Source: a virus. Taken from it: a DNA stretch of 64,000 bases. The translations under genes were made by a program, and so were the position numbers. This document shows positions 5,025-54,746 of this stretch, one piece after another; the first letter of the stretch is position 1, and every line of letters begins with the position of its first letter. The notes under the pieces were generated by a model. That model was not told the origin of the DNA. It made no database searches and saw nothing but the letters and a program-made list of their open reading frames with translations. Where the stretch lies: IMG/VR virus record IMGVR_UViG_3300031857_000136, one strand, 5' to 3'.

Positions 5025-5049
5025 GCGAATGTGCATGGAACACATTCGC
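5025..5049 (-). terminator. Perfect 9-bp stem / 7-nt loop hairpin (GCGAATGTG catggaa CACATTCGC) between the 1888-aa gene stop and the tail-fibre ATG. It is followed on the minus strand by UUUGUUAUAUUAUU.
   Basis: Inverted repeat read directly from the sequence, with a U-rich tract 3' on the coding strand. Confidence 0.4.
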
Positions 5050-5112
5050 AAAGTTAATGAATATAGTTTATTTTCAATGAGTTAGAATAAAGAATGCCAC
5101 ATAATATAGCAA

Positions 5113-30681: not shown

Positions 30682-33600
30682 TTATTTATATTTGTTTAAC
30701 CAACCACCATCTTTAAATGCTTTAATTTCCCCTTTACCACTCTTAAACCTTTCAGGTATATCAAACTCATACCAGGTATTACCTTTACTATCTGTTACTA
30801 TTTTAACTTCTTGCCCAAATAGTTTTTTAATGAGTTTAGGTTGTTCTGTATATTTTTTAAGAATGGTTACAGCATTTGGCTCATATATCTTACCTTTTAA
30901 CTTTCCACTTAAAACATCATTAATTAATTTTCTTTCATGCTCAGTTGATTTGTCAGTAAGTTCTTTAGTAAAGTTTGGATTTTGTGCTAGTTCCTCATTA
31001 TATCTTCTTATAATCTCTTCAGATTCAACACCTTCATAACCCTGTACCTTTGCTGCAGTTTCTGATGTGGGTACTCTTACTTTATTTACATCACCTCGTT
31101 TACCAGCATAATCCACTAGCTCTTGTAAATATCTTTCTTGATGATTTTTATCTAATAATGACTTCTGTTCAAAGTTTTCTACTTCTGCTCTTTTAAGTTT
31201 ACTAGAAGCATTTTCTTCTTTTACAATCTCTGTAAATTTATCAATCTCTTCATCTATTTGACTAATAGTTTCTTTATCTGCTTTATTTATAAGTAGTTCT
31301 TCTTTTTGTTTTTTTAAACTTTCAAGAACGTTATTACGCTGAGTCGCTATGTTTTCCAAACTTTGTAAAGAAAACTCTGCTTCTTCTAAACTTTTAGGCA
31401 TTGATCTATATCTACCTTGAAAAGCATCAGATTGCATTTGTGTCATTGTAAGAACATCTGGTGATTCAGCGTCTCTTATAAAATGAATATGACCAAGAGT
31501 TTCCATGGGATTATCATGAGCATCAGCCCCTCTACCAAATTTATCTTTATTACTTAATCTGATAGTTTGATTTTCTAAAGGAAGATCATTATACTCTTTT
31601 AAGTATATATTTAGATTTGCTTTCAATATATCTAAATAATCGCCTCCTTCACCACGTGCTTCAAATCTACGAATGTCTTCTTTTGCTTCATTTATACGAT
31701 TAAGAATAGCATCTTTATCAGCTTTAGTATATCCTAGGTTATTTATACCATAACTAGAACGATATGTACTAACAACTTCTTTATCTAAAGGAATAAGTTG
31801 ATCTTGTACTGTTTTCCTAAAATCATTATAATCCATCTTCTTAGGTAGATCTTTTCCTAATGCCTTTTTTATAATGCTTGCTTTACTAGCACCACCTGAT
31901 TCTTTTGCTATAATACCTAATGCTTGTTCTACATTTACAAGTCCTGTTTTAGGTTCTACTATCTTACTAATTGGACCTCCTTCTACTGTAGATGATAAAT
32001 GTAATCCTGGAAGTTCTTGTGGTTCCCAAGCTGATTTTACATTAGGTGTAACATCATTCATCATTAAATTAGAAGTGGTTCCTCCTTTTTCAGGTACATT
32101 TTTTAACGGAGTTAATTGTTTGAATGCTGATCCTAAAGCAGGAGAAAATACAGCACCTAAATCAAATGCATCCCCAAGCAATCCTAATGTACCTAATGTG
32201 TTTGCTAGAAATCCATTCCCTTGACCAATACCATAAGGGTTATTTTTAGGATCTCTAATTGCTCTAGATACTCTAACACTTGACATAATAGGAGTCATAT
32301 CTGCAACATTCTCAGCAGCTATCTTACCAGCAGCTTGATTACTTCCTGTTGGTGTGAAAGAACTTAATGTTTGAGCAAGAGGAGACTTACCTTTAGCTTC
32401 ATCCAAGTATGCATTAACAACTTGTTGTTGAGCAATCTCTTTCTGTCTAGGTGTTCTATTATCTTGTTTAACAGTTTCTTGTTTGCCTTTAGCTCTAGCA
32501 ACTGCCTCTGCAAGTATTTGTTGTGGTCTTTTCTGATCAGCTTCAGCTAATGCCTTATTCGTCTCATATGTTTGCTTCGCTATTTTCATTTGAGGAAAGT
32601 AGGATGCTATATCACCTCTGTTTTTATTCTCCTCCTTAAATATAGGATCAAACATAGATTTTCCATACTGAGCTGTATCAAATTTACTTAACCAGCCACC
32701 ATCTTTGCGTTTGTCAACGTTCAGTCCAAGTTTTTCAATTTCAAGCTTCTTAACCATGTCAATAACTGGATCTATAGTATACTTGTTATAAGTATCTCTT
32801 GTTTCTTTACCTAAAACACTAGCAGCTCCTAGTCCAAGTGTATACTTCTCAGCAAGACTTTGTAAATGTGGAGCCATGGTAGCAAACTGAAACTCGTTAT
32901 TCATCAGCTTCTGTTTGTCAATAGGAACATATCTTGTAGAAAAAGGAAGCCTTCTGTTAAAAGACATACCTGGTTCTGTAAGTGGTATTTCAGAAAGTCT
33001 TCTTCCTGCCTTATCAACCATAAGTACACCATTTCTATCAGGTACCTGAAGTGTAGATAAGTTTGCATCAGGGTTGTTCATATCAAAGGTGGCTTCAAAC
33101 ACACCTGGATAATTTTCAGATGGTTGATTTCTAGCTGCCCAGTTTCCTTCACTAACTATCTGATCTCTGCCCATTCTGAATTTAGAACCACCAGCAGGAC
33201 TTAATGCCTGTCTTTGTATAACATCATCTAGAGAGTTACCAAACTTTCTAAACGTCTGGTTTTTACCAGATAGTTTTCTGCCGTATCCAGGTATAAGATT
33301 TAAAGGACTCATGTCCATTATATCCATCTCTACACCCATTGCTTTTATAGGATCTATTCTCGGTGCTATATCATCTACTAAACCAAGTGGATTGAATCCT
33401 GACTTCTCATAAGGAGGAGAAACATAAGAAGGAGAAATAGATTTTGGTTTAGTCATTAGACTACGTACACCACTAAGGCCAGATGCCACACCTTCCATTA
33501 CTAACATAGGTTCTACTATATTCTCCATAGCTTTAGCTGCCACCTCAGAACTAGCTGCTCTATTTAATAGTTTAGCTTGTTCTGCTCTGTATGCATCTTT

Positions 33601-36159
33601 AGCTGCATTCATTCTCTGTTGGTCTCCAGGTTTTGGAGTGTATTGAGAAACAGTTTCTTGAGCATTTCTAGCTTTCTGATTCTTAATGTCCTTTTCAAGA
33701 GCTGCCATTGTTTCTAGATTAGATCTAGATAAAGGACCTCCAGATTGATACTTACTTAACCAGCCACCACTCTTCATCATTGGATACTCTGTAACATACT
33801 CACCATCAAAGTTATAGTCTTCTCCAGGATACATCATCTGTTGGTCCCCTGTATCAGATATTCCTAGTACGGGATAATCTACCCCTTCCATTGTTATGTC
33901 TGTTCCTGGTATTATAGTTACTTCTCCTGGATGTGCCCATTGTCCCATTGGGTCTACAATAGCACCCTCTTGAGCAATACTGTTAGGTTTAAAATCTAAA
34001 CCTTCTTGGTAGAACTTCATCTCTTTACCATTCTGTGCAGAAGCTTTTGTCTTCTTAGCATACTTACCATTGCTAGGAGCACTACCAGCTACACGTGCGT
34101 ACGTGAATCCTACAGCACCTGGTAAGCTACCACCCATAGCTTTTTTAGGAACAAACTTTGGATTCTTAGGATCAAATGGTAGATAATCATTAGTATTCCA
34201 AATGCGTCCATACCAAGTATCATTATAGTTGCTATTAGGAACTCCAGGGGCTGGATTGTTTATATTTTTATAATACCAATCTCTACCTTTGTTCATTAAT
34301 GTTCTTCTCTCGTTTTCAGAAAGCTTACCAATAGTACTAGCATATTCTTGATCAAATGAATATGGTGCATTCTTTCTACCAGACCATTTACCATCAGCAT
34401 CTAATTTAGATTGATCGTATTGTCTATAATATTCTTGTAAAGCATATGCTCTAGGATCTTTAGTTATTTTATTGTTATTCTCATCCCATCCAGCATTAAA
34501 GATAAAGTCCATAGCTTCACCAGCTTCCATTGCAGTTGCACCAGGCATTATCTTTTTTACTTCTGGATATACTTTATCCATTAGCATATTCATATACTTA
34601 GGATCACTATAGTATGGTAAAGGAGCACCGCCAGGTCCACCTCTTAATTGTTCATATTGTAATATCTTATTAGCTTGATGTCTAACACTGTCAGTAGTTG
34701 ATTTACTACCTCCATATTGCATTGTTCCACCCATAGCCATATCACCATCCTTTTCCTGTGCACGCATAGCCTTACGAATCTTCTCTGGGTCTGTTTCAGG
34801 AGTTCCATCTAAACGAAGAACTTTACGCTCTTTTAGTTTTGGTGTACTATATATAATTCTTTTACTACCACCAGTTGTATTACCTGTACCTAAGAAGTCT
34901 TCTTCACTAATCTCTATTCCATTTAATATGTATTTCTTACTTCCTGTAGGAGTATATGGTGCTGGTTTAGTTTCTTCAGATTTTTTAATTACTGGGGTCT
35001 TTTTCTTTTCTAGTTCAGTTTTTGATTCCTCAGTAGATGTAGACGGTTCTACCTTTTCATCAATTAAACCACTTTCTTTTCCATATCTTTTTAATCTAGT
35101 AGCTCTTTCTTTAGAAGTGAGCATACTTACAGGTTTAACTAATATAGGGTCATAAGAATATATAGAAACATTATCAGCAAATAAAGGATCGTCTGTTTTA
35201 CTATTTACATAATAATACTGCATTGTAGGAGTGATTCTATTATCAAATAGCTGCATTGGAGATTTTGTGTCTAATGCTCCAATTCTAGTTTCTCTTTGAA
35301 GATATCTATTAGCATCAAGTTTTTTGTAATATGAATCTACTGGGATAGTCTTAATTTCATATTTTTTACCTGTGTCTGTAGGCACTAAAATACCACTAGA
35401 TTTGTTTAATTTAAGGAAATCTGCTAGTGCCTCTCTATTATAACGTTTATAATGTTCTTTCTTTTTATAATCTATAGTACTATAATTTTTATATCTTTTA
35501 TCATTATAATAATCAAGTACTTTCTTAGAATTATTATAAAGAGCAAGACTATCTGCCATTGTAGGGATAGACTTACCTACCTGAGCTACATATCCACCAT
35601 CTTCCATATCTCCCCATCTCTTAAGTGGTGTAGGAATAGGTTTTCCTTTTTCTACATATGGATGTCTAATTTCTTGTTCCCATTTTTCAGCCTCTTGCCA
35701 TGTTTTAAATGGACCACCAAGATGTTCACCTGTCTTTCTATATTCAGCAACAGGATCTTTTAAATCCTTACCACCTTTAAACATAGGTATTAAATAAGCT
35801 GGTTCTCCGTCTACTCCTCCTATAGATGTAGCTAGTTCGGTACTAGGCTCAGCATAAGGAATTCTGTAACGTGAAGGTAGTTTGTAACTAATAGGTTGTA
35901 AGAAACCACCACTCTGAAACTGTCCACCCCATGCAGGAGAATAGTTTCTACCTGTTGTATCATTACCCATTCCTACAAAACCAGGACCTACAGATACATC
36001 CACCTCATTAGGATTAGGCTTCTTACCATAGTTATCTAACCAACCACCATCCTTCATGGTGTTATCTTTCCCACACATATGGCAAACATACATATCTTTC
36101 TTGCTGGAATCTGATTTATTCCAGGAATGTCCACATGTGCATTTAATACCTTTAGCCAT
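30682..36159 (-). CDS. 1825-aa large virion/cargo protein with an N-terminal zinc-ribbon-like CTCGHSWN...CHMCG.
   Basis: ORF track. Five KDGGW-type motifs are present (MKDGGWL, MEDGGYV, KSGGWLSKY, KDGGWLSKF, FKDGGWLNKY). An internal PGAVGFTYARVAGS (nt 34084-34110) is nearly identical to the major capsid protein N-terminus PGLTGFTYARVAS. Confidence 0.85.
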   Translation of the reverse strand: MAKGIKCTCGHSWNKSDSSKKDMYVCHMCGKDNTMKDGGWLDNYGKKPNPNEVDVSVGPGFVGMGNDTTGRNYSPAWGGQFQSGGFLQPISYKLPSRYRIPYAEPSTELATSIGGVDGEPAYLIPMFKGGKDLKDPVAEYRKTGEHLGGPFKTWQEAEKWEQEIRHPYVEKGKPIPTPLKRWGDMEDGGYVAQVGKSIPTMADSLALYNNSKKVLDYYNDKRYKNYSTIDYKKKEHYKRYNREALADFLKLNKSSGILVPTDTGKKYEIKTIPVDSYYKKLDANRYLQRETRIGALDTKSPMQLFDNRITPTMQYYYVNSKTDDPLFADNVSIYSYDPILVKPVSMLTSKERATRLKRYGKESGLIDEKVEPSTSTEESKTELEKKKTPVIKKSEETKPAPYTPTGSKKYILNGIEISEEDFLGTGNTTGGSKRIIYSTPKLKERKVLRLDGTPETDPEKIRKAMRAQEKDGDMAMGGTMQYGGSKSTTDSVRHQANKILQYEQLRGGPGGAPLPYYSDPKYMNMLMDKVYPEVKKIMPGATAMEAGEAMDFIFNAGWDENNNKITKDPRAYALQEYYRQYDQSKLDADGKWSGRKNAPYSFDQEYASTIGKLSENERRTLMNKGRDWYYKNINNPAPGVPNSNYNDTWYGRIWNTNDYLPFDPKNPKFVPKKAMGGSLPGAVGFTYARVAGSAPSNGKYAKKTKASAQNGKEMKFYQEGLDFKPNSIAQEGAIVDPMGQWAHPGEVTIIPGTDITMEGVDYPVLGISDTGDQQMMYPGEDYNFDGEYVTEYPMMKSGGWLSKYQSGGPLSRSNLETMAALEKDIKNQKARNAQETVSQYTPKPGDQQRMNAAKDAYRAEQAKLLNRAASSEVAAKAMENIVEPMLVMEGVASGLSGVRSLMTKPKSISPSYVSPPYEKSGFNPLGLVDDIAPRIDPIKAMGVEMDIMDMSPLNLIPGYGRKLSGKNQTFRKFGNSLDDVIQRQALSPAGGSKFRMGRDQIVSEGNWAARNQPSENYPGVFEATFDMNNPDANLSTLQVPDRNGVLMVDKAGRRLSEIPLTEPGMSFNRRLPFSTRYVPIDKQKLMNNEFQFATMAPHLQSLAEKYTLGLGAASVLGKETRDTYNKYTIDPVIDMVKKLEIEKLGLNVDKRKDGGWLSKFDTAQYGKSMFDPIFKEENKNRGDIASYFPQMKIAKQTYETNKALAEADQKRPQQILAEAVARAKGKQETVKQDNRTPRQKEIAQQQVVNAYLDEAKGKSPLAQTLSSFTPTGSNQAAGKIAAENVADMTPIMSSVRVSRAIRDPKNNPYGIGQGNGFLANTLGTLGLLGDAFDLGAVFSPALGSAFKQLTPLKNVPEKGGTTSNLMMNDVTPNVKSAWEPQELPGLHLSSTVEGGPISKIVEPKTGLVNVEQALGIIAKESGGASKASIIKKALGKDLPKKMDYNDFRKTVQDQLIPLDKEVVSTYRSSYGINNLGYTKADKDAILNRINEAKEDIRRFEARGEGGDYLDILKANLNIYLKEYNDLPLENQTIRLSNKDKFGRGADAHDNPMETLGHIHFIRDAESPDVLTMTQMQSDAFQGRYRSMPKSLEEAEFSLQSLENIATQRNNVLESLKKQKEELLINKADKETISQIDEEIDKFTEIVKEENASSKLKRAEVENFEQKSLLDKNHQERYLQELVDYAGKRGDVNKVRVPTSETAAKVQGYEGVESEEIIRRYNEELAQNPNFTKELTDKSTEHERKLINDVLSGKLKGKIYEPNAVTILKKYTEQPKLIKKLFGQEVKIVTDSKGNTWYEFDIPERFKSGKGEIKAFKDGGWLNKYK

Positions 36160-37025
36160 TATTTGTAAGAGATTTGAGATGGTGTAATAATGAATTGACT
36201 TATCAAATGGGCATCTGATCTATTATCTAGGACGTGTCTCACCTTTAAATCCTTCGCACGTAGAGGTTCTTTCTTAAATGATCTCTTTCCATAATCCATA
36301 TTTGGTTGATTTACAACCTTATCTATAGACAATGAGTCACAACCTGTTACAAACAAAGGTATGGATTTATCTTTAACTAATGACCAAAATGTATTATATT
36401 GATAAAAATTATCTGATTTAGTAAACATAATCGTCTTACTATCAGCGTTATACATAGGATACTTCAAGTATTCCTTTAAGTTATTTATTGGTTTAGGAAC
36501 TAATTCTAGTACACCAGAAGACTGTTGTCCATTGTATAGGACAGCTTTGTTGAAATAAACTGTGTTTGTTTCTATCTTAGCGTTATCATTGAACACACCA
36601 TCTGGTATAGGGAGGTATCTATATGCCTTTGTGTAATCTTTTACATTCTGTAAGATCTCATCATAATACTGATAGGCAAATGGATATTCTATAATATAAG
36701 GTTCTATGTTTCCGTAGAATATATTGTAAATTGTTGTGTTAGTTAAGTGCCTCCATAAAGATGGGGTGTTTGTAGGTACAAACTCAATAGCTGCTATATC
36801 TGTAATACATAGTTCCTCTATAGGCATTTGTAATCTTGTTTTACATTTTCCTGTAGATTCAATAATAATAACAGTAACATCATCACTAACCGAATAGGTG
36901 ATTCCAGAAATAACTTGGCTCTTAGGAATATTAGTTCCTAAGACATTTCCGTAGTTATCAGAAATCTTAAACGGTCCAGTTCTAATGCCAGCCTTTGTTA
37001 ATCTTATTGTTATTACTTTAGACAT
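36159..37025 (-). CDS. 288-aa hypothetical structural protein.
   Basis: ORF track. Its N-terminal ~60 aa (ITIRLTKAGIRTGPFKISDNYG...IIIESTGKC) are paralogous to the N-terminus of the 45826..46362 product (ITLTTAGSSTGPFSLYSDANSY...IIRVMSTGTC). Confidence 0.75.
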   Translation of the reverse strand: MSKVITIRLTKAGIRTGPFKISDNYGNVLGTNIPKSQVISGITYSVSDDVTVIIIESTGKCKTRLQMPIEELCITDIAAIEFVPTNTPSLWRHLTNTTIYNIFYGNIEPYIIEYPFAYQYYDEILQNVKDYTKAYRYLPIPDGVFNDNAKIETNTVYFNKAVLYNGQQSSGVLELVPKPINNLKEYLKYPMYNADSKTIMFTKSDNFYQYNTFWSLVKDKSIPLFVTGCDSLSIDKVVNQPNMDYGKRSFKKEPLRAKDLKVRHVLDNRSDAHLISQFIITPSQISYK

Positions 37026-37036
37026 ATCTTAATTAA

Positions 37037-40000
37037 TTACGAAGGACATTGTTCTACAGCTGTTCCATCAGTTAGAGTACAATCTGGTGCTGGTGGAGAA
37101 GTTGTGGTTGTTGTTGTGGTACTAGTAGAAGTACTGGTTGTTGTGCTAGTACTTGTACTGGTAGTTGTTGTAGTAGTGGGTCCAGGTGCTAATGTTGTTG
37201 TAGTAGTGGTAGTTGGTTCCACAGTTGTTGTTGTGGTGGTAGTTGGAGTTATAGTACAATTTGTAATAGCTACAATATACCCATCAACTATTTGTGTTAT
37301 TTCACAAGTTTCGTGGTTTGTTATATAAAATCCATCATATAATACATCACAATTAGTAAATGTTCCAAAATAAACATAACTTCCAACACCGAATGTAGAA
37401 CTTTGACCAATCCAAGCTCCTTCACCCCAATTATAATTATTTTTTAACCAATTACAAGCATCACAAGCACTTTCTAATGTTGCAGAGTAGTTAATTGGCT
37501 CAGCCCCTTCTGAAGGTGTATATGTAAAGAAGTATTCATAATTTGTCAATCCTTCAGGTCTACTAGTACATATAGTGGTAGTAGTTGTGGTGGTTGTTGG
37601 TTCTGTAGTGGTTGTGGTAGTAGTGGTAGGTTCTACAGTAGTAGTGGTAGTTGTTGTACTTGTACTACTAGATGTTGTAGTGGTAGTAGTTGGACATTGT
37701 TCTACAGCTGTACCAACTATTGTACAATCTACACAAGCCGTACCAATTATTGTACAATCTATACAAGCTGTTCCTATCAATGTACAGTCTATACACAGAT
37801 CAACTGCTGTACCTATTATTCTACAATCTTTTGTTGTTGATGTTGTTGTAGTGGTTATACAAGGAATCTCAGAGAAAGCAATTGCTTCTAAGTCACATCC
37901 ACCATTCAATCCAGAATAGAAGAAGTTGTTCTCTGCTATATAGAAGTTAGGAATATAGCTATGGAAGCTAATCCAACTCTTAGTGTTCATACTAAATGAA
38001 AGAGTCCATGACTTATTACAGAAGTATTCTGAGTCATAAACACTCACCACTGTTCTTATTACGCTCTCACCTAGAGTTTTTTCTATATAGAACTCTTGCT
38101 TAACAGCATCATATTTAATGTTTTTGCTATTAGGGATGTAATCTAACTTAGATATAATCACCCTGTCATACTTACTATCAAACACTCCATGTAAGCCAAT
38201 ACCATCATAATGGTTATCTGTGTTTACATCAGGATAGTAACGTAAGATTTCAAATGCTAAATGGTCTGTGAAGAACTTATTAAGTCCTGAACCAAACCCT
38301 GATAAGTCAGTAGCCTGATTACCTGCAATTAAAAATACCTGTCCTCTTTTAGCATCCACTGTAATCTGTCCTTGAGGAATCTTTAACAAGAACTTATTCT
38401 GAGCTCCTACATATCCAAGGTCTGTTTCAGCAAAGTCAATTGGAGGAGCACTCTTAAATAATGTATCATTACCTAAATAAGCAGCTTGTGGGTTGCTAGT
38501 TTGAACTGTAAGCATTGTATTATATAACAATGACTTGTTCTCAAATCTAGCTAACACAGCTTTATTCTGAATACCATCTAATGATACAAGATCACCAAAG
38601 TTTTGAGGGAAGTCAAAGAATGATGTAGCACCATAACTTAACCAGTTATTTACCCTGTTATCAGCATATGCATCTTGAGGGTCTGAATAGACAGCTCTAA
38701 ATGGATACTTAGTATAACAAAGTTCCTCAACCCAATCTGCAGGTAGGTGAGTAAATGTATTCTCTTTATTTTGCTTTGAAAACGTTACATTATAATAATA
38801 TGTATTATCAAAAGCAATAGGAACCACAGACTCTTGTAACCAGTTATCAGGAATACCTGAGCTCACGTGTGGGTAGAAGTCACCTTCTAAACTATTAAAT
38901 GCTTGACGTAAGTCTACATTTATAGAAGATTCACAATAGAAAGAAGGAATACCGTAAGCAAACATATACATCTTACCATCGTAGAATGTTCTGTTAGGAT
39001 TTACTACAGGAGGATTTGTTGCTGATTGAGGTGCAGGATCTTGGTTATTAGGACAATCAAAATTGTGTGCCTTATAAGAAATCATGTTCTTTAACACCTC
39101 ACCCGTAGTTAATGTAAAATCACTTAACACAGATCTAGCTGAGTGCCAGTATTGTGGATAAGCCACATTACCAATCTCATCATAGAATATATCACTATCA
39201 TCAGGAGCATTCACTCTATCATCAAAAAAGAATGGAAGCTTAGTTTTAAATGCAAACTTACTAATGAATGTATCACCGCCAAATATAGTGGCTGATCTAG
39301 GTGTAGAAAACATCATATTGTTAATATCAATGCTTTCTTGAAATCCTGTGTCAATTGTATTGTAAGAATAGATTTGCCCCCACTGATTAACAAAGATGTT
39401 CTTTAATGATCCATAGTAAGAAACTACATTGATTGCTTCATTCTTACCAGGTACAGAACAGTTATTCTTCTGTGATATAGTGAATCTTGATGTATCAGAG
39501 ATACCACTTACACCACCAACTAAAAGACTAGGAGTCTGATTAGGGAATGGTAAAGGTATCACTGATGAACCATCTCTAGTGTCAATAGTCTTTAGATATA
39601 CAGATGATTCTCTGTTAAAGTTGTTAAGATCATGTAAGTCACTTACAGATTGTACACCTGGTATAACGTATTGATACTTATCTAGTTGTCTTTGTTTGAT
39701 ACCTAGATTGTTATCAATAGCTCCACTGTAATCATAACTAGCTATTGAGTTAAATGAATAACCATAATTTCTTCTAGTGATTCCATTTATGTAGATAGTT
39801 AGATAGGCTTGATATGCAGCAAACATTGCTGAAGCACTGAATGGTGTTGTTATATTAGCAATAACTTCACTAGATCTAAGGGCATCTTGTTGAGCTTCTG
39901 CTGTGAGAAGTTTGTATGTAGCATTTCTCTTAACCTCTACAAAATGAGCTATACCAGCACCAAACATAACATTCTCAAGCTTAAGAACAGATCCTAAGAA

Positions 40001-42286
40001 AGGTTGTCCAAAAGATGTTTCAGGTGAGTTAAATACCATTCTGTATTTAGACTCATCTGTAGCAAACGCATCTAACTTATTAGGATAACAAAGTGAGTTC
40101 TTTGTTGCATCTGTTGTAATACTATAACTAGTTGTTCCAGATAAGTATATAGGAAGTACTGATGAGTTCACTTGTTGTAATCCATTACCTGTCACTGTGA
40201 TTTGGTTAAATGCAGTGGTTAATGGATCTTGATATTGGAATACAGTTGTTGAATCACTAGTAAGATTATATGTGTTATAGACAACCACAGTGATTATAGC
40301 TGTTCCACTCATAACCAAAGGAGTGCTAAGAGAACATATCTTTTTTGTAGTTCCAACTACTAATGTTTCTATCTGTGTTGTATTTGAAAAACAATCAGTG
40401 TATTGTATAATACATGTTGTAGTAGCTATTACATTGTAGGTAATACATTGATCAAGATATGCATTATTATTATCAAGAAGGAACTCATCCTTATTAAGAT
40501 CGTTATATGGATAGTTAGGGAAGTAGAACTCTGTTTCTTCTCTTTTATATTTACCTACGTTTCTAAGAATACCCTTAGCTACAATAGATTTGTTTGTATT
40601 TCTATCTCCTCTTACAATTTTAAATCCTATGATGCTTTCTTTCTGTGCCTGTGTAAGATTAGATGCGTACACCAAGTATGCAACTTGTTGAACATCAATC
40701 TTTACACCCATTGGGAATACAGCATCACTTTGCATCACTGGTGTAAAACCTGACCCTAGTGTATATGTAGGACTTTCAAATATAGGACTTATAAGAACAT
40801 CAGGAAACTTATGATGTCTAATTGGTTGACTAGCAAGATCACCCCATACATCTATGTTACATGGATAGGTTTCAGTTGATTCCCAATAAGCAAACTCACC
40901 GTATTGATAAGGTCCTTTGTAAGATTGACTTGGTGAATATCCAGGAGAAAATCCTGTTACAGAACCTGTATTGTAAATCTTCCAATAAGGTGCACTTGTA
41001 CCATCTCCAATAAAGTCAGGATTAGTGCTTGGTACATCTGGTTGAGAACCTTCGTTAGCAGTAATCATTCTACCAGGAATATGAAAACCATCTGTTTGTT
41101 TACCACTACTTAACAAGAAAACTATCTCAAATGCATACACCTCATCTCTTAGATAACCTCTAAGGTTTGTAGCGTTCAGTTCATCAGCATAGGTTTCTGT
41201 ACTAGGGATTCTATAAGTTTCCCATTTAAGATCAATTTGCGTTGCAATTGATTGATAGTTAATTCTATCTACAGAGGTAAGATTGTCCCAGATAAGAATA
41301 TCTTGAGCAGTGGTTAAGTCTTGAGCTATCTCATAGTATGGATATTTCTCAAATATATCATCAATAGTAAGACGAATCTGTGTAACATTCTGTCCTGTAT
41401 AAGTTATATTTCTAGTGCTATCTTCTATAAAATAAGTTCCAGCTAATTCCACAGATGGTATACCGTTCACTGTTTTAATTACAGCAAGATTGAAATATTG
41501 GAATTGTCCAGTGGTATCTAGATTACCAACACTAACTATAATAGATTTACCCACTTGATAGTTAAAATCTAATGTGGTAATTTGAGGATCAGCAATAGGT
41601 GTGGGATTGGTAATAGAGTAGAAAGATGTGTAGGGATTACCAGCAGCATCACAATACTGAATGGCAAACTGATATGTACCAGCAGTGAGGTCACCACCGT
41701 TTGTAACATCAGTTACATCTAATGAAGGAATGTTAAAATTAGGCTGAACGTTTAATTGATTACAATCAAGTTCATTAGTATAAATAGGATCACATAAATC
41801 AGCTGTAGGAGCTAACTTATATGGAATATTATTTAAATCTATGTATCTTCTAGGATTAAGACCATCTGTCCAATACACTTCTGTAGTGCAATTGGTAATC
41901 TTATGAACAGCTTTAAGGATAGGATATTTTACATCAAAACCTAAACATTTAGCACTTACGTATATACGGTATACACAATCATTGTTATCCATATATCCAA
42001 TCTGGCTATCTCCTGTTTCAGGATTAGTTAAGAAGAATATATGTTTGTTTTGTTCACCAATGAAATGAGTTCCTATTAAATGATAGCCTGTAGGAAAGTC
42101 TAGACATAACTCATTACCTGGCTCATTCTGATAGTTAACAGAATCTGAGTCAAAGTTCTCAACACTAGCATTCAATGCATACGTAAGCTTACCTTTCTCA
42201 ATCTGATTTACAGATTGATCCAGATTCAAACCAGAAGTAGCATTGTTATACTCTTGTTTAATATTAGTTGTTTCTTCTCCAGCCAT
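37037..42286 (-). CDS. 1749-aa tail spike/fibre-like protein. The C-terminal region combines poly-Thr linkers, tandem Cys-containing IDCTxIGTAC repeats and a terminal globular module.
   Basis: ORF track. The repeats run DCRIIGTAVDLCIDCTLIGTACIDCTIIGTACVDCTIVGTAVEQCP, with T8-T17 linkers. The position between tail genes and a very large beta-rich N-terminal region are consistent with a receptor-binding protein. Confidence 0.8.
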   Translation of the reverse strand: MAGEETTNIKQEYNNATSGLNLDQSVNQIEKGKLTYALNASVENFDSDSVNYQNEPGNELCLDFPTGYHLIGTHFIGEQNKHIFFLTNPETGDSQIGYMDNNDCVYRIYVSAKCLGFDVKYPILKAVHKITNCTTEVYWTDGLNPRRYIDLNNIPYKLAPTADLCDPIYTNELDCNQLNVQPNFNIPSLDVTDVTNGGDLTAGTYQFAIQYCDAAGNPYTSFYSITNPTPIADPQITTLDFNYQVGKSIIVSVGNLDTTGQFQYFNLAVIKTVNGIPSVELAGTYFIEDSTRNITYTGQNVTQIRLTIDDIFEKYPYYEIAQDLTTAQDILIWDNLTSVDRINYQSIATQIDLKWETYRIPSTETYADELNATNLRGYLRDEVYAFEIVFLLSSGKQTDGFHIPGRMITANEGSQPDVPSTNPDFIGDGTSAPYWKIYNTGSVTGFSPGYSPSQSYKGPYQYGEFAYWESTETYPCNIDVWGDLASQPIRHHKFPDVLISPIFESPTYTLGSGFTPVMQSDAVFPMGVKIDVQQVAYLVYASNLTQAQKESIIGFKIVRGDRNTNKSIVAKGILRNVGKYKREETEFYFPNYPYNDLNKDEFLLDNNNAYLDQCITYNVIATTTCIIQYTDCFSNTTQIETLVVGTTKKICSLSTPLVMSGTAIITVVVYNTYNLTSDSTTVFQYQDPLTTAFNQITVTGNGLQQVNSSVLPIYLSGTTSYSITTDATKNSLCYPNKLDAFATDESKYRMVFNSPETSFGQPFLGSVLKLENVMFGAGIAHFVEVKRNATYKLLTAEAQQDALRSSEVIANITTPFSASAMFAAYQAYLTIYINGITRRNYGYSFNSIASYDYSGAIDNNLGIKQRQLDKYQYVIPGVQSVSDLHDLNNFNRESSVYLKTIDTRDGSSVIPLPFPNQTPSLLVGGVSGISDTSRFTISQKNNCSVPGKNEAINVVSYYGSLKNIFVNQWGQIYSYNTIDTGFQESIDINNMMFSTPRSATIFGGDTFISKFAFKTKLPFFFDDRVNAPDDSDIFYDEIGNVAYPQYWHSARSVLSDFTLTTGEVLKNMISYKAHNFDCPNNQDPAPQSATNPPVVNPNRTFYDGKMYMFAYGIPSFYCESSINVDLRQAFNSLEGDFYPHVSSGIPDNWLQESVVPIAFDNTYYYNVTFSKQNKENTFTHLPADWVEELCYTKYPFRAVYSDPQDAYADNRVNNWLSYGATSFFDFPQNFGDLVSLDGIQNKAVLARFENKSLLYNTMLTVQTSNPQAAYLGNDTLFKSAPPIDFAETDLGYVGAQNKFLLKIPQGQITVDAKRGQVFLIAGNQATDLSGFGSGLNKFFTDHLAFEILRYYPDVNTDNHYDGIGLHGVFDSKYDRVIISKLDYIPNSKNIKYDAVKQEFYIEKTLGESVIRTVVSVYDSEYFCNKSWTLSFSMNTKSWISFHSYIPNFYIAENNFFYSGLNGGCDLEAIAFSEIPCITTTTTSTTKDCRIIGTAVDLCIDCTLIGTACIDCTIIGTACVDCTIVGTAVEQCPTTTTTTSSSTSTTTTTTTVEPTTTTTTTTEPTTTTTTTTICTSRPEGLTNYEYFFTYTPSEGAEPINYSATLESACDACNWLKNNYNWGEGAWIGQSSTFGVGSYVYFGTFTNCDVLYDGFYITNHETCEITQIVDGYIVAITNCTITPTTTTTTTVEPTTTTTTTLAPGPTTTTTTSTSTSTTTSTSTSTTTTTTTSPPAPDCTLTDGTAVEQCPS
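37730..37830 (-). repeat. Tandem ~30-nt coding repeats encoding four IDCTxIGTAC units inside the 1749-aa gene.
   Basis: Repeated acaagc(c/t)gt(a/t)cc(a/t)at(t/c)a(a/t)tgtaca(a/g)tct units are visible in the sequence. Confidence 0.6.
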
Positions 42287-51895: not shown

Positions 51896-53449
51896 TTAGA
51901 ATTGTGGTATTTCTTCGATTAATACTGTACGTGATAAATCTTCAATGAATACATCACAACGGTCTTTCATCCAAATCTCATAACCAGGGAATTTGTTCGC
52001 AGAACTCATACCTTGAGACTTAGCAAAACCTAAGTGGTGACGAGTTCCATCGATATAACCCCAAGTCATTGAAGGAGCACCCTTCATACGTACTTCACGG
52101 ATGTTGTTTACCATTGAACCATCGCTCATTGGAGATACATCAAACACCATGAATACAGGAGTAGATTTTTTGTTCTGACCGAATTCTAAGTTAGTTTGAG
52201 GAAGGTCTAATTCTTTTAAGTGAATTAGTTCAACACGACCTGTTTCACGTGTAACCATTGCATCGAATGCAAAGTTGTAAGTGATGTGTTGACCTTCTCC
52301 TTGCATGTAGCGATTACCAGAATCAGCCATGAAAGTTAAACCAGAATTAAGTGCATCATTTTTAAGAGCTTGTTGGAACACATCGAAACCAGCTTCGTTA
52401 GTGTACATTTTAACTCTACGATCCTTAACATCAACACGTCTGTAGAATAAGTCACCAAACACTGAACGAATCAAGTTTGCAGTGAACTCACCACGGTTGT
52501 ATTGTACTAAGTTACCGTTATTACGCATTCTGTGGTATACACCAGCAGATGTACGCTTTAATTCTTGCTTAGAACCATTAGTCTTCACGGTACCAGGCTT
52601 AGCCCAGATCATACGCTTAACTTTTAATTCTAACATAGACTTACGCATCCAGAACTCAATAAATGGTTCCCATTTAACATCGTTACGAGTTAAAGGTAAT
52701 TGGTTACGTCTTTGTGGAGCATATACTAAGATGTCAAGAGGCTTACCAGAAGCATCACGCATCATTTTGTCATCAGCCCACTCAGTGATCTTGTGCTCAT
52801 AACCATATGCAGAACCTAAAGATTCAAACATAGTGATTTGCTCACCTAAACGAGGAAGACCTAATAAGTCTTGATCGAATTCACCGATAGCAGCATCAAC
52901 TAATTCAAGTTCAATACCAGTCTGTAAGAAAGTAGAACTTACGTAATCTACTTGAGGGTTGTCAGTCACAAGAGTGAAGGTGTACAAAAAGCCCATATTC
53001 CAAGGAATAGGATCTTTGATCACGTAGAAACGAGGACCATACTGACGAGTACCTACAGAAACAATTGCATTCTTAGAGAACTCATTAGTGTCAATTACAA
53101 GAGAAAACTCTTGACCATCGATACCTGGCTTATCTAGAGCTAGAGTGCTATCAGGAATATCAATGATTTTAGGGAATTTGTAAGGAACTTGTACTTGCCA
53201 CTTCCAAGCATCACTGTTGTTATCGATATAGTAAGGAGTGCTCTTGTTAATCATATCCAAGAAATCGTTACTGTAAAGAGAACTCTGAGTGTACAAACTG
53301 ATAATCTTCTTATCATAATCTGCTGGCTCAGTCGAGTGAAAACTCTCCAAGTGGTTTGCATCTGTCAACTTACCTACTGCACGCTTGTCCATAGAAGCAA
53401 CACGAGCATACGTAAAGCCAGTTAAACCTGGAATTGTTTGAATTGCCAT
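51896..53449 (-). CDS. 517-aa probable major capsid protein.
   Basis: Its position directly after the scaffold-like gene, its size and the strong RNA structure right after it fit a capsid protein. The N-terminal GFTYARVAS motif is shared with a cargo protein. Identity is positional; no fold-level evidence is available. Confidence 0.55.
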   Translation of the reverse strand: MAIQTIPGLTGFTYARVASMDKRAVGKLTDANHLESFHSTEPADYDKKIISLYTQSSLYSNDFLDMINKSTPYYIDNNSDAWKWQVQVPYKFPKIIDIPDSTLALDKPGIDGQEFSLVIDTNEFSKNAIVSVGTRQYGPRFYVIKDPIPWNMGFLYTFTLVTDNPQVDYVSSTFLQTGIELELVDAAIGEFDQDLLGLPRLGEQITMFESLGSAYGYEHKITEWADDKMMRDASGKPLDILVYAPQRRNQLPLTRNDVKWEPFIEFWMRKSMLELKVKRMIWAKPGTVKTNGSKQELKRTSAGVYHRMRNNGNLVQYNRGEFTANLIRSVFGDLFYRRVDVKDRRVKMYTNEAGFDVFQQALKNDALNSGLTFMADSGNRYMQGEGQHITYNFAFDAMVTRETGRVELIHLKELDLPQTNLEFGQNKKSTPVFMVFDVSPMSDGSMVNNIREVRMKGAPSMTWGYIDGTRHHLGFAKSQGMSSANKFPGYEIWMKDRCDVFIEDLSRTVLIEEIPQF

Positions 53450-53483: not shown

Positions 53484-54746
53484 TTATTGAAACCATGAAG
53501 TTGTAGGCTTGGGCTTATTTCCTGTTTTTGTAGAACTTTTGCTAACTTGTCTAGCAACTTCACCAAACAATTCATTTGACTTCTTGGTGATACCAGTCTT
53601 TTGTATTGTAGATAATGTAGGATCCTTTTCTAAAATCTTTAATAAAAGTCCAATCTTAACCTTTGTTGCATGGTTTTCTGGACGCTTAAGTTCTAGAATA
53701 GTGCGATCAAAATCTGTGAGAGTCTCACCAGATGCTGTCTTATACTTATCTACTAACAGGAAATCTTGTAGTTCACCAGCCAATTTAGGGTTCAGAGGAA
53801 TACCGTCAAACTCTTTTGTTTTTAGTTTTTCTTGTAATACCGACTGAACGTTTTGATAGTATTGCTGTTTAACAGCAGCTTGCTGTTGTAATCTTCTTTC
53901 GTTTTCTTGCTCCATTTGTTGGAGCTTTGCTGCTTCTTTCTTAACCAACACTTTGTGGTGTTTAGTAGCAACAGTTTCCAAATCACCGTAATTCTTAAGT
54001 CTTTCAACTTCTGTTGTAACATCCTCAGGATCAAATCCTTGATCAGAGAGTGCTTGTTTAATTACTGCAACTTGGTTAGATTCGTCTGCTAAGTCCATCT
54101 CAGCAAAACTCTTTATATTATTATAAGTACCGAAATACTCTTTTGGATCTACTCCTTTTACAAATATGGCATCAAATGCTTGTTGATAATCTTCTCCAAA
54201 TTGACCAATGAAGTTGTTTACCACCTCAATAGCTCCTTTCTTCTTTTCAGCTTGGAAACGCTCAAGGAATTCCTCAGGAGTTGAGATATTAACTTCTTCA
54301 TCATCTTCATCGTTGGTGAATACACCAAGTTTGAAAAGGTCTCTAGATAGAGATGTAAATGGACTAGATGGTTCATCACCTTCTGTTTCATTATCATCTT
54401 CTGTATCTGCAGGAGCTTTTGCTTTGGGAGTTGGAGCAGGAGAATCATCTTCATCATCATCCTCTTCATCATCTCCACCTAGTAAAAAGTCCTGTAAAGA
54501 TTTTTTATTATCTTCTTTATTTTCCTCATCATTCTCTTCTGAAGCAGCAGCAGGAGCTGGTGTCTTCTTTGCAGGTTTAGGTGCAGGAGCAGGTTCATCT
54601 TTAATATCTTGGATATCATCAGGATTGGTAGTAGAAGTCTCAGGAGCAAATAAGTCACTTAAAAGCTCTTGGTTTCCCATGCCCATTTCCATAGTATCTT
54701 GAATACTAAAGTTTCCCATTGACGGGTTGTCTAGATTTTCAGCCAT
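53484..54746 (-). CDS. 420-aa acidic scaffold-like protein (E/D runs and PAPAPKPAKKTPAPAAAS, with a helical Q/K-rich C-terminus).
   Basis: Composition and position between portal/SPFH and the capsid gene. The antisense Ser-rich ORF 54208..54702 is an artefact. Confidence 0.55.
   Translation of the reverse strand: MAENLDNPSMGNFSIQDTMEMGMGNQELLSDLFAPETSTTNPDDIQDIKDEPAPAPKPAKKTPAPAAASEENDEENKEDNKKSLQDFLLGGDDEEDDDEDDSPAPTPKAKAPADTEDDNETEGDEPSSPFTSLSRDLFKLGVFTNDEDDEEVNISTPEEFLERFQAEKKKGAIEVVNNFIGQFGEDYQQAFDAIFVKGVDPKEYFGTYNNIKSFAEMDLADESNQVAVIKQALSDQGFDPEDVTTEVERLKNYGDLETVATKHHKVLVKKEAAKLQQMEQENERRLQQQAAVKQQYYQNVQSVLQEKLKTKEFDGIPLNPKLAGELQDFLLVDKYKTASGETLTDFDRTILELKRPENHATKVKIGLLLKILEKDPTLSTIQKTGITKKSNELFGEVARQVSKSSTKTGNKPKPTTSWFQ

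What the first reader, a model, noticed from the sequence alone, without database searches (positions are those of the whole stretch)
34084..34110. Near-identical 9-10-aa motif PG..GFTYARVA[SG] in the capsid N-terminus and inside the 1825-aa cargo protein
The capsid protein starts MAIQTIPGLTGFTYARVASMDKR (nt 53396-53419). The 1825-aa protein contains SLPGAVGFTYARVAGSAP. Eight consecutive identical residues in two otherwise unrelated proteins is far beyond chance. It suggests a shared recognition element, either a head-maturation protease cleavage site or a capsid-targeting/incorporation signal that directs cargo into the prohead.
Basis: seen in the sequence. Interest (0 to 1): 0.7.

Follow-up and report, generated by a model that had tools for sequence, protein, structure and literature searches.

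The report
Capsid-arm motif copied in cargo protein

Summary
MCP residues 6-17 (IPGLTGFTYARV) and residues 679-690 of the 1825-aa ORF (LPGAVGFTYARV) are the only two copies in the window. Five of the eight identical residues use different codons.

Across about 120 MCP and 117 cargo-module sequences, P, G, G, Y and R are invariant in both contexts. F is invariant in the MCP and 88% in the module. All synonymous codons are used, and threonine then methionine are the commonest residues at the variable position in both.

The cargo copy lies in a predicted disordered region of a conserved ~190-aa module. In many relatives this module is a stand-alone protein just after the muzzle gene, the position of ΦcrAss001 cargo protein C1 (gp45). 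The MCP copy is a predicted β-strand at the tip of the flexible N-arm.

No protease gene was found in the window. No cellular protein carries the motif. ΦcrAss001 MCP keeps its N-terminus in the virion.

The best reading is a shared docking motif that recruits or anchors the cargo protein through N-arm mimicry. A shared cleavage site remains a live rival. The two copies do not co-vary within genomes, and deeper clades keep the MCP motif without a detected cargo copy.

The parts
53399..53434 (-). Motif copy 1: MCP residues 6-17, IPGLTGFTYARV, at the tip of the N-arm.
   Evidence: Translation. HMM hit of 25.1 bits. Residues 11-17 are a predicted beta-strand within residues 1-57, where pLDDT is below 50 apart from a few residues. 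Profile in 120 homologues: [IL]PG[LA][TS]GF[TMLN]Y[AG]R[VIT][AS]S.
34090..34125 (-). Motif copy 2: residues 679-690 of the 1825-aa ORF, LPGAVGFTYARV.
   Evidence: Translation. HMM hit of 22.6 bits. The AF2 model of residues 665-808 gives pLDDT about 42 here, i.e. disordered. Profile in 117 instances: [LIM]PG[AS][VT]G[F>HMNS][TMS]YAR[TV].
51896..53449 (-). Major capsid protein gene (517 aa), crassvirus type.
   Evidence: Pfam Crass_capsid PF23898, E 2e-27, aligned from residue 25. Family profile against PDB hits ΦcrAss001 gp32 (7QOF) at E 3.6e-53. Foldseek top hits are 7QOI, 7QOF and 7QOH.
30682..36159 (-). 1825-aa mosaic ORF directly after the muzzle genes, in the position of ΦcrAss001 cargo protein C1 (gp45).
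   Evidence: ORF list and translation. Synteny with ΦcrAss001 gp44 (muzzle), gp45, gp46, gp47 and with relatives where the gene is only 192 aa. No Pfam or PHROG hit.
33745..34146 (-). Conserved module (aa 672-805): MGG junction, motif, YAKKTKASAQNG, small beta domain, GGWLSKY.
   Evidence: 310 homologues at E<=1e-3. Most of the 120 listed are stand-alone proteins of 170-250 aa. The module is found behind varied upstream sequences in IMG/VR contigs.
34129..34137 (-). MGG junction immediately before the motif (aa 675-677).
   Evidence: G is 97% and 92% conserved at positions -4 and -3 of the module motif. The junction also marks the downstream edge of a ~490-aa cassette that relatives lack; they read ...RWGDMAMGG|SLPG.
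34027..34101 (-). Two 12-residue units, YARVAGSAPSNG and YAKKTKASAQNG. The second weakly resembles the N-terminal tail of ribosomal protein bL27.
   Evidence: Coordinates. bL27 resemblance: Pfam PF01016 E 0.018-0.025; PDB profile search E 0.065; hhalign P 0.0067. All are below threshold.
33775..33972 (-). Small beta domain of the module (aa 730-795).
36028..36048 (-). GGWLDNY, the first of four GGWLxK[YF]-type motifs.
33748..33768 (-). GGWLSKY, at the end of the conserved module. This is the C-terminus in stand-alone homologues.
32680..32700 (-). GGWLSKF, the third copy.
30688..30708 (-). GGWLNKY, the fourth copy, one residue before the C-terminus of the ORF.
53484..54746 (-). 420-aa ORF directly upstream of the MCP: putative scaffolding protein and candidate shared partner.
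   Evidence: Its position and its C-terminal Trp parallel ΦcrAss001 gp31, which also has an acidic N-terminus. The C-terminal TSWFQ has a Trp kept in all clades examined. No functional annotation. The scaffold role is inferred.
55401..57986 (-). Portal protein, an alternative candidate partner.
   Evidence: phrog_6547 portal, E 3e-102.
36159..42286 (-). Muzzle-type protein split into two ORFs (1749 aa and 288 aa). It fixes the synteny of the 1825-aa ORF.
   Evidence: Both ORFs hit phrog_15100. Other clades have a single ORF of 1578-1590 aa with a near-identical C-terminus: SQISYK in L451, TMQSYK in L448. Ring proteins 1, 2 and 3/4 lie upstream.

Best explanation
The element [ILM]-P-G-x-x-G-F-[TM]-Y-A-R-[VT] is a short linear docking motif read at the protein level.

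In the MCP it is the tip of the flexible N-arm, predicted as a short beta-strand after a PGxxG turn. In HK97-fold capsids that use a separate scaffolding protein, the N-arm contacts the scaffold in the prohead and neighbouring subunits in the shell.

The copy in the post-muzzle protein is a mimic of that arm tip, placed in an intrinsically disordered, motif-rich region of a C1-like ejection (cargo) protein. Because it presents the same surface, it is bound by the same phage-encoded partner. The most likely partner is the 420-aa putative scaffolding protein. Alternatives are the N-arm acceptor site on MCP subunits, or the portal vertex where a penton's arms are missing. By this route the cargo protein would be co-assembled into the prohead and held near the shell or portal until ejection.

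Shown here:
- There are two copies only.
- Both are under protein-level selection.
- Their conservation profiles run in parallel.
- The cargo copy is in a predicted disordered region, and the MCP copy is in the N-arm.
- The cargo ORF is syntenic with C1.
- No protease gene was recognised.

Inferred: that the two copies share a partner, the identity of that partner, and the consequence for loading.
For: 1. Only two contexts exist. All 117 PGxxGFTYAR instances found in the 118 IMG/VR stretches are either the MCP N-terminus (89) or the module (28). Nine of the 10 hits in 185,579 bacterial and archaeal species genomes are the same phage genes on MAG contigs. The tenth is an out-of-frame chance match.

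2. The conservation profiles run in parallel. P, G, G, Y and R are 100% conserved in both contexts. The residue before the motif is aliphatic in both. Position 6 reads T74/M10 in the MCP and T66/M19 in the module. Position 10 is beta-branched in both. Synonymous codons vary freely.

3. The cargo copy lies in a region with pLDDT about 42, flanked by other strongly conserved short motifs and followed by a small folded domain.

4. ΦcrAss001 C1 (gp45), encoded at the same genomic position, is an extended polypeptide with short ordered segments docked on ring proteins, portal and probably muzzle (PMC10172136). Its portal-bound segment starts at FGGWLN, and its residues 799-820 resemble the module's N-terminus.

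5. The motif occurs in tandem in some homologues, such as P0201 and P0214. Repeated copies can increase binding strength, which suits a docking motif.

6. No peptidase was recognised in any ORF scanned, from TerL to the cargo block.

7. 7QOF chain B of ΦcrAss001 MCP has 503 of 504 residues, so the crass-type MCP N-terminus is retained in the virion. Modelled length varies between subunits from 451 to 503 residues.

8. Precedent from P22. The scaffold hook binds coat N-arm residues D14, E15 and E18, and ejection proteins co-assemble with the scaffold (PMC12005531).
Against: - No binding or structural test was possible, so the shared partner is inferred.
- The two copies do not co-vary within genomes. 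MCP GFTYARV occurs with module GMMYART, GFMYART or GFMYARQ. Any common partner must therefore tolerate F/M/H/N at position 5 in the cargo copy but not in the MCP.
- In deeper clades (L448, L451) the MCP keeps PGxxGxxxxR, yet the post-muzzle protein shows no copy in its first 738 or 1012 residues. The cargo copy is thus not needed by all relatives.
- Conservation stops sharply after R in the cargo copy, which would also fit recognition of the residues upstream of a cleavage site.
- ΦcrAss001 itself lacks the motif in gp32 and gp45, so the structural precedent is indirect.
Confidence: 0.5

Rival explanations
1. The motif is a shared proteolytic processing site. A phage or host protease would recognise PGxxGF[TM]YAR and cut the MCP, either at Y14|A15 (removing 14 residues, like the Prp F|A cut of phage 80alpha capsid and scaffold proteins) or after the invariant R16. 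It would cut the cargo polyprotein at the same element. The nearby Phi-x-x-G-G junctions (Phi = a hydrophobic residue) might be further cleavage sites.
For: - Six positions are absolutely invariant, including small residues (G, G, A). In the cargo copy, conservation drops abruptly after R.
- Y-A-[RK] occurs twice in the module (YARV and YAKK) and once in the MCP.
- The second unit weakly resembles the bL27 N-terminus that follows the Prp site in Firmicutes (PMC5744158; PMC9405229).
- The 1825-aa ORF is built of cassettes bounded by GG junctions, like a polyprotein.
- Precedents: the T4 capsid-targeting sequence with protease gp21 (PMC9026906), and 80alpha with host Prp.
Against: - No peptidase family was detected in any window ORF scanned.
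- Phage contigs are binned with Bacteroidota (Sediminibacterium) MAGs. Bacteroidota are not among the phyla listed as having long L27 and Prp.
- No cellular protein carries the motif.
- Y-A is not kept in more distant MCPs, which read GLYAGR, GIKVGR or GHVVQR.
- ΦcrAss001 MCP is modelled to 503 of 504 residues, and the structural atlas paper never mentions cleavage.
- Tandem copies would yield useless 17-residue peptides.
Confidence: 0.22
2. There is no common partner. The two copies would be independently constrained structural elements, such as a PGxxG turn followed by an amphipathic strand that each packs against its own protein or a different partner. The resemblance would then come from convergence, or from an old transfer of a short segment that now serves unrelated roles.
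For: - There is no within-genome co-variation.
- Deeper clades keep the MCP element without a detected cargo copy.
- The cargo copy tolerates H/M/N/S at position 5, where the MCP is invariant F.
- The window-only statistics are modest.
Against: Convergence on six identical invariant positions over 11 residues, with threonine then methionine commonest at the variable position in both, and within the same virion assembly module, is improbable. In the AF2 model the cargo copy is disordered and does not pack on the module's own domain.
Confidence: 0.15
3. The module is a phage bL27 mimic. The motif would be part of an N-terminal extension related to ribosome or L27 biology, for example use of a host L27-processing or L27-binding factor, and the MCP would share that factor.
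For: - bL27 is the only recurrent family hit. Pfam matches 3 of 30 members at E 0.018-0.025. Four distinct bL27 chains are among the top seven PDB profile hits, at E 0.065-0.35. hhalign gives P 0.0067.
- JGI named one member 'ribosomal protein L27'.
Against: - All scores are below threshold.
- The AKKT segment is replaced by GPRRNQTDVTD in a whole subclade.
- The likely hosts have short L27.
- The motif itself lies outside the L27-like stretch.
Confidence: 0.05
4. The match is a DNA-level artefact: a recent duplication, gene conversion or assembly chimera.
For: None beyond the identity itself.
Against: - Five of eight codons differ.
- Both copies are present in hundreds of independent contigs, with 115 and 73 distinct nucleotide versions.
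- Twenty-five loci carry both copies on one contig.
Confidence: 0.01

Closest known systems
Phage T4 capsid targeting sequence (CTS) of internal proteins, with prohead protease gp21
   Same: A ~10-residue peptide shared by otherwise unrelated proteins directs them into the prohead by binding the scaffolding core (PMC9026906). It allows varied cargo to be packaged, which parallels the mosaic cargo ORFs here.
   Different: The T4 CTS is strictly N-terminal, is removed by gp21 at an L/I-x-E site, and is not a copy of the MCP N-arm. Here the cargo copy is internal (aa 679-690, or about aa 70 in stand-alone forms). No protease was found, and the match is to the MCP itself.
Staphylococcus phage 80alpha capsid and scaffold N-terminal motif shared with host ribosomal protein L27 (cleaved by Prp)
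   Same: An MCP N-terminus shares a short conserved motif with another assembly protein. In 80alpha, 13-14 residues are removed at F|A, and here Y14|A15 sits at the same distance from the N-terminus. The authors also proposed a common chaperone or partner as a role for the peptide (PMC5744158). The module here has a weak bL27-like stretch.
   Different: The sequence differs from the Prp motif LNLQFF|A. No host protein carries the motif. The probable Bacteroidota hosts are not among the phyla listed with long L27 and Prp. Cleavage is not shown here.
Phage P22 scaffolding hook / coat N-arm contact, and scaffold-dependent incorporation of ejection proteins
   Same: This is the mechanistic template. 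The coat N-arm (D14, E15, E18) is the scaffold-binding site, and ejection proteins co-assemble with the scaffold in the procapsid (PMC12005531).
   Different: P22 ejection proteins are not known to carry a copy of the coat N-arm. That contact is electrostatic and helical, not a PGxxG-strand motif.
ΦcrAss001 cargo protein C1 (gp45)
   Same: It occupies the same genomic position, directly after the muzzle gene. It is an extended protein with short ordered docking segments. It has G-G-W-L and Phi-G-G-x-L motifs (Phi = hydrophobic), and FGGWLN starts its portal-bound segment. Its residues 799-820 read ANWLDTLAKSGVLKMNTKGEYT, compared with the module N-terminus ANWLDKYEQGGLVLKKKTKDNYG.
   Different: There is no significant overall sequence similarity (best BLASTP E 0.038; hhalign probability 2%). 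Neither gp45 nor gp32 of ΦcrAss001 has the PGxxGFTYAR motif.
Encapsulin cargo-loading peptides
   Same: A short conserved peptide in a disordered tail docks cargo onto the inner face of an HK97-fold shell. This rests on established knowledge. Encapsulin shells appear among the fold matches of the MCP model.
   Different: Encapsulin peptides are C- or N-terminal tags that bind a pocket near the shell protein's N-terminal helix. They do not copy a shell-protein segment.

Membership tests
Crassvirus major capsid protein (Pfam Crass_capsid; ΦcrAss001 gp32) | Sequence match to the family model above the curated threshold. | tested here: met
   PF23898 scores 96.2 bits against a cut-off of 27, E 2e-27. 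The family profile hits 7QOF gp32 at E 3.6e-53.
Crassvirus major capsid protein (Pfam Crass_capsid; ΦcrAss001 gp32) | HK97 fold with crass-type architecture, and crass-type gene neighbourhood. | tested here: met
   The AF2 model (pLDDT 76.5) has 7QOI, 7QOF and 7QOH as top Foldseek hits, E 1e-23. Ring proteins 1, 2 and 3/4, portal and TerL are nearby.
Crassvirus cargo protein C1 (ΦcrAss001 gp45) | Gene directly downstream of the muzzle gene and upstream of C2 and the RNA polymerase block. | tested here: met
   Window order is ring 2, 158 aa, ring 1, muzzle (1749 + 288 aa), 1825 aa, 1266 aa, 865 aa, 4464 aa. ΦcrAss001 has gp44, gp45, gp46, gp47.
Crassvirus cargo protein C1 (ΦcrAss001 gp45) | Detectable sequence homology to gp45. 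| tested here: not met
   Best BLASTP E is 0.038. hhalign probability is 2%, over 22 columns only. Only short motifs are shared (GGWL, ANWLD...).
Crassvirus cargo protein C1 (ΦcrAss001 gp45) | Presence in the virion, with segments bound to portal and tail barrel. | not testable with these tools
   This needs virion proteomics or cryo-EM of a member of this uncultured clade.
T4-type capsid targeting sequence / prohead-protease substrate | A prohead protease gene in the head module. | tested here: not met
   No peptidase hit in Pfam or PHROGs for any ORF scanned in the window. The gene between portal and putative scaffold is SPFH/Band_7. A divergent or host protease cannot be excluded.
T4-type capsid targeting sequence / prohead-protease substrate | The targeting peptide is at the N-terminus of the cargo and is removed on maturation. 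| tested here: not met
   The cargo copy is internal in the gene (aa 679-690, or about aa 50-115 in stand-alone homologues). It would become N-terminal only if the preceding GG junction were cleaved, which cannot be tested here.
Prp / long-L27 type cleavage motif (80alpha CP and SP) | Match to the motif ML..(D/N)LQ(F/L)F|A(S/H)KK. | tested here: not met
   The sequence is PGxxGF[TM]Y|AR. Only the aromatic|Ala pair and the distance from the MCP N-terminus (14 residues) correspond.
Prp / long-L27 type cleavage motif (80alpha CP and SP) | A host ribosomal protein L27 carries the same extension, and the host encodes Prp. | tested here: not met
   A scan of 185,579 species genomes for [ILMV]PGxxGFTYAR[VTI] found only phage genes and one out-of-frame hit. 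MAG bins point to Bacteroidota, which are not among the phyla listed with long L27. L27 genes with a diverged extension were not searched for.
Ribosomal protein bL27 (for the module downstream of the motif) | Score above the Pfam gathering threshold, and an L27 fold. | tested here: not met
   [not shown]
Short linear docking motif in a disordered region (operational class) | Short, strongly conserved, embedded in predicted disorder, and found behind varied upstream sequences. | tested here: met
   pLDDT is about 42 around the cargo copy and below 50 over almost all of residues 1-57 around the MCP copy. Invariant positions. Varied upstream contexts and tandem copies.
Short linear docking motif in a disordered region (operational class) | A demonstrated binding partner. 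| not testable with these tools
   No multimer prediction or experiment was available.

The most novel reading that the evidence does not exclude
Cargo loading by capsid-arm mimicry. The ejection protein would carry a copy of the MCP N-arm tip. That copy would either compete for the scaffold's MCP-binding site or plug N-arm acceptor sites left empty where the portal replaces a penton. The module's C-terminal GGWLxKYK might in turn imitate the Trp-containing C-terminal tip of the scaffold. This would be a previously undescribed way for a tailed phage to address proteins to the capsid interior. It would also give a portable tag for loading foreign proteins into crass-like capsids.
Probability: 0.3. 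Interest if true: 0.8.

Novelty: new variant of a known kind. Interest (0 to 1): 0.55.

Why it matters
Crassviruses pack several megadaltons of proteins (RNA polymerase subunits and ejection proteins) into the head and tail. The ΦcrAss001 structural atlas does not address how these are recruited during assembly.

A 12-residue element shared by the capsid protein's N-arm and the first cargo gene gives a concrete, mutable handle on that question. The phage clade is very abundant in freshwater metagenomes, with hundreds of IMG/VR contigs.

If the motif is a docking tag, it could be used to load proteins into capsids. If it is a cleavage site, it would point to an unrecognised maturation protease in crass-like phages.

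Tried and rejected
- Recent DNA duplication or gene conversion: rejected by codon differences and by 115 and 73 distinct nucleotide versions.
- Further copies in the window: none found by regular expressions or a motif HMM.
- Within-genome co-variation of the two copies: tested on 25 loci that hold both copies and not found. MCP GFTYARV occurs with module GMMY or GFMY. A scan for the GFMY variant found no contig with both copies changed.
- Deeper co-variation. The GLYAGR and GLTYAR MCP clades show no cargo copy in the part of the post-muzzle ORF that could be read. For the GHMY/GNMY module clade, the MCP lies more than 10 kb from the anchor gene and could not be paired.
- Protease search: Pfam and PHROGs on all window ORFs that were scanned found nothing.
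- Host protein with the motif: none in the species genome collection.
- Homology of the 1825-aa ORF or the module to ΦcrAss001 gp45: not significant.
- bL27 relationship: consistently the top hit but below threshold, and not supported by fold search.
- Close cultured relative: none. The best match in the phage collection is Leptolyngbya phage Lbo-JY46 MCP at 26% identity, and there is no nucleotide match.
- Literature strings GFTYAR and GGWLNKY: no paper found.

Full report
**1. What is in the window**

The minus strand carries a crass-like structural module. In gene order it holds:
- TerL (57986-60016)
- portal (55401-57986)
- an SPFH/Band_7 protein (54868-55398)
- a 420-aa ORF (53484-54746)
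- the MCP (51896-53449)
- a 322-aa ORF
- ring proteins 3/4, 2 and 1, and fibre-like ORFs
- a muzzle-type protein split into 1749-aa and 288-aa ORFs (36159-42286)
- ORFs of 1825, 1266, 865, 4464 and 1888 aa

The MCP matches Pfam Crass_capsid at E 2e-27. A profile of its family hits ΦcrAss001 gp32 (7QOF) at E 3.6e-53. Its AF2 model has the ΦcrAss001 capsid chains as top structural matches. No cultured relative is close; the best MCP match in the phage collection is 26% identical.

**2. The observation**

The shared element is IPGLTGFTYARVAS in the MCP (residues 6-19) and LPGAVGFTYARVAG in the 1825-aa ORF (residues 679-692). Five of the eight identical residues use different codons.

A motif HMM finds only these two copies in the six-frame translation, at 25.1 and 22.6 bits, with the next match at 3.3 bits. 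The window alone gives p of roughly 0.04 for an 8-mer. That figure is a hand estimate from a typical amino-acid composition, and 11 of 300 shuffles also gave some shared 8-mer. The case therefore rests on comparative data.

**3. Conservation**

The MCP has 607 homologues at E<=1e-10. The 120 listed cluster representatives are 82-94% identical. All of them carry [IL]PG[LA][TS]GF[TMLN]Y[AG]R[VIT][AS]S.

The cargo segment has 310 homologues. In 117 instances the profile is [LIM]PG[AS][VT]G[F>HMNS][TMS]YAR[TV].
- P, G, G, Y and R are invariant in both contexts.
- Position 6 reads T74/M10 in the MCP and T66/M19 in the module.
- The residue before P is aliphatic in both.
- The residue after R is beta-branched in both.

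Among 115 distinct nucleotide versions of the MCP copy and 73 of the cargo copy, all synonymous codons occur, including six Arg codons in the MCP, while the amino acids stay fixed. Selection therefore acts on the peptide.

An IMG/VR scan for PGxxGFTYAR returned 118 stretches, in which I found 117 instances. All are either the MCP N-terminus (89) or the cargo module (28). A scan of 185,579 species genomes found only these phage genes on MAG contigs, plus one out-of-frame chance hit.

**4. What the cargo copy sits in**

The motif belongs to a conserved module. Its order is Phi-x-M-G-G (Phi = a hydrophobic residue), the motif, ...PSNG.YAKKT.ASAQNG, EMKFYQEGLD.KP, a small beta domain, then GGWLxKYK.

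In many relatives this module, preceded by an N-terminal M-x-x-WLxKY segment, is a stand-alone protein of 170-250 aa. In a 111-kb contig the 192-aa version lies between the 288-aa muzzle ORF and ORFs of 983, 863 and 3966 aa. This is the position of ΦcrAss001 C1 (gp45), after muzzle gp44.

The window's 1825-aa ORF consists of:
- that small protein;
- a cassette of about 490 aa, inserted exactly between two M-x-x-GG junctions;
- two further cassettes, each ending GGWLxK[YF].

ΦcrAss001 gp45 shows no significant overall similarity, but it shares short motifs. FGGWLN at residues 426-431 is the start of the segment seen bound to the portal wing (residues 425-552; PMC10172136). Residues 799-820 resemble the module's N-terminus.

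**5. What the MCP copy sits in**

The Pfam and 7QOF alignments begin only at residue 23-25, so the motif lies in a lineage-specific N-terminal extension. In the AF2 model, pLDDT is below 50 across residues 1-57 apart from a few residues, and residues 11-17 (GFTYARV) form a predicted strand. This is N-arm behaviour.

More distant MCPs (36-64% identity) keep PGxxGxxxxR[VI]S but not F.YA; examples are GLYAGR, GIKVGR and GFSYGR. ΦcrAss001 gp32 starts MAGKLGKFQMLGFQHWKGLTSDNHL and has no such motif.

Chains of ΦcrAss001 gp32 in the PDB hold between 451 and 503 residues of the 504-residue protein. The N-terminus is therefore retained in the virion, and its order differs between quasi-equivalent positions. 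That the missing residues are N-terminal is my inference.

**6. Tests of co-variation**

Twenty-five loci hold both copies on one contig. MCP GFTYAR[VI] is found with module GFTYART (13 loci), GMMYART (5), GFTYARV (4) and GFMYAR[TQ] (3). The two copies are therefore not matched within a genome, and the window's eight-residue identity is simply the commonest state of each.

In two deeper clades (L448, MCP GLYAGRISQ; L451, MCP GLTYARVSS) the post-muzzle ORF has no copy and no GGWL motif in its first 738 or 1012 residues. L448 keeps a related small beta domain, and both keep Phi-x-x-GG junctions. The MCP element is therefore older, and the cargo copy is specific to one large clade.

**7. Protease question**

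No peptidase family was found in any window ORF scanned, with Pfam or PHROGs. The ΦcrAss001 atlas does not mention cleavage, protease or scaffold.

The module has a weak, recurrent but sub-threshold resemblance to bL27 from YAKKT onwards:
- Pfam E 0.018-0.025 in 3 of 30 members;
- PDB profile search with top hit bL27 at E 0.065, plus three more L27 chains;
- hhalign P 0.0067.

This recalls phage 80alpha, where capsid and scaffold proteins share the L27 Prp site and lose 13-14 residues at F|A (PMC5744158). Here Y14|A15 lies at the same distance from the N-terminus.

Against that parallel:
- the Prp motif is different;
- the phage contigs are binned with Sediminibacterium and other Bacteroidota MAGs;
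- the AKKT stretch is absent from a whole subclade;
- no cellular protein carries the motif.

**8. Interpretation**

I take the motif to be a shared docking element. The MCP N-arm tip and its mimic in the disordered part of a C1-like ejection protein would be bound by the same phage partner. The result would be co-assembly or anchoring of the cargo protein in the prohead.

The partner is inferred. The first candidate is the 420-aa ORF upstream of the MCP. Its position and its conserved C-terminal Trp parallel ΦcrAss001 gp31, which also has an acidic N-terminus. In P22 the scaffold hook binds the coat N-arm, and ejection proteins co-assemble with the scaffold (PMC12005531).

Alternatives are the N-arm acceptor site on neighbouring MCP subunits or the portal vertex. 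In ΦcrAss001, special proteins replace the usual auxiliary protein at the portal vertex. Tandem copies of the motif in some homologues fit a docking motif.

The main rival is a common cleavage site, which I put at about 0.2. It is favoured by the absolute invariance of six positions, the sharp end of conservation after R in the cargo copy, and the polyprotein-like GG junctions. It is disfavoured by the points in section 7. A reading with no shared partner gets about 0.15 because co-variation is absent.

**9. Comparison with known systems and novelty**

The closest known systems are:
- the T4 capsid targeting sequence (PMC9026906);
- the 80alpha/Prp motif;
- P22 scaffold-dependent loading;
- encapsulin cargo-loading peptides.

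None of these uses a copy of the capsid protein's own N-arm tip placed inside a cargo protein. I did not find the motif strings in the literature library. I rate this a new variant of a known kind, a shared assembly or processing signal, of moderate interest. Its function remains unproven.

Noticed in passing
window 36028-36048, 33748-33768, 32680-32700, 30688-30708 (- strand); P0121-P0240: GGWLxK[YF] occurs four times in the 1825-aa ORF and nowhere else in the window. Many stand-alone homologues begin M-x-x-WLxKY, and most end with a GGWLxKY-type motif at or near the C-terminus. ΦcrAss001 gp45 has FGGWLN exactly where its portal-bound ordered segment begins. This is probably a second docking motif.
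   Followed up: partly
window 34129-35595 (- strand), aa 189-677 of the 1825-aa ORF: A cassette of about 490 aa is inserted exactly between two M-x-x-G-G junctions (DMEDGG| ... KKAMGG|). Relatives read RWGDMAMGG|SLPG at this point. Phi-x-x-GG junctions (Phi = hydrophobic) separate cassettes in this ORF and in the post-muzzle proteins of other clades (MQQGG, MQKGG, LQKGG). They could be linkers, recombination joints or cleavage sites.
   Followed up: partly
[not shown]
   Followed up: yes
window 54868-55398 (- strand): A 176-aa SPFH/Band_7 domain protein (Pfam E 5e-27) is encoded between portal and putative scaffold. A protein of similar size is found at this position in several related clades, though homology was not tested. 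Its role in head assembly is unknown.
   Followed up: no
window 53484-54746 (- strand); C-terminus at 53487-53516: The 420-aa ORF upstream of the MCP ends ...TSWFQ. A Trp near the C-terminus is kept in every clade seen (PWNL, AWNL, PWTL, AWANIK, VWR) and in ΦcrAss001 gp31 (GWDLDV). This is likely the MCP-binding tip of a scaffolding protein. It loosely resembles the C-terminal GGWLxKYK of the cargo module.
   Followed up: partly
window 36159-37025 and 37037-42286 (- strand): The muzzle-type protein is split into a 1749-aa and a 288-aa ORF, and both hit phrog_15100. Other clades have one ORF of 1578-1590 aa with a near-identical C-terminus (SQISYK in L451, TMQSYK in L448). One relative has a 2695-aa version.
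   Followed up: partly
window 5113-10779 (- strand): The 1888-aa ORF has an ADP-ribosyltransferase domain of the polyvalent-protein type (PF18760, E 4e-11) and a weak PD-(D/E)XK nuclease match. It is a candidate injected anti-host effector.
   Followed up: no
window 10785-24179 (- strand): The 4464-aa ORF has no Pfam hit. By position it is probably the virion RNA polymerase block, fused into one gene. Relatives have about 3900-3970 aa here.
   Followed up: no
window 1-5103 (- strand): An ORF of at least 1663 aa runs off the left end of the window. It has a Cys-rich N-terminus (MNVTCSAEPCPVILNATCVFYEG) like several fibre-like ORFs in the window, which start MSCTNCYNGC or MACVPGTPC.
   Followed up: no
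L529 and L536 (JBBAJS010000010.1, 111,986 bp), L533, L531, L537, L538: Genome-length phage contigs of this clade are binned in two Sediminibacterium MAGs and in Cytophagales, Bacteroidetes and Kapaibacterium MAGs, and also in a few Firmicutes and Actinobacteria bins. This is a host lead towards freshwater Bacteroidota, not proof.
   Followed up: partly
P0201, P0214, P0187, P0157: Some homologues carry the motif in tandem, for example MGGALPGAVGHMYARYEEGGEMPGDVGFSYART. The repeat unit is therefore GG-x-[LM]-PGxxGxxYAR.
   Followed up: partly
window 36070-36141 (- strand): The 1825-aa ORF and many homologues start with a four-Cys zinc-ribbon-like segment (CTCGHSW...CHMCG). Other homologues lack it and start directly with M-x-x-WLxKY.
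   Followed up: no
L540 9300-10001: In one relative, a 233-aa ORF with faint or weak NUMOD-type (homing-endonuclease-like) Pfam hits is inserted between the 288-aa muzzle ORF and the module gene.
   Followed up: no
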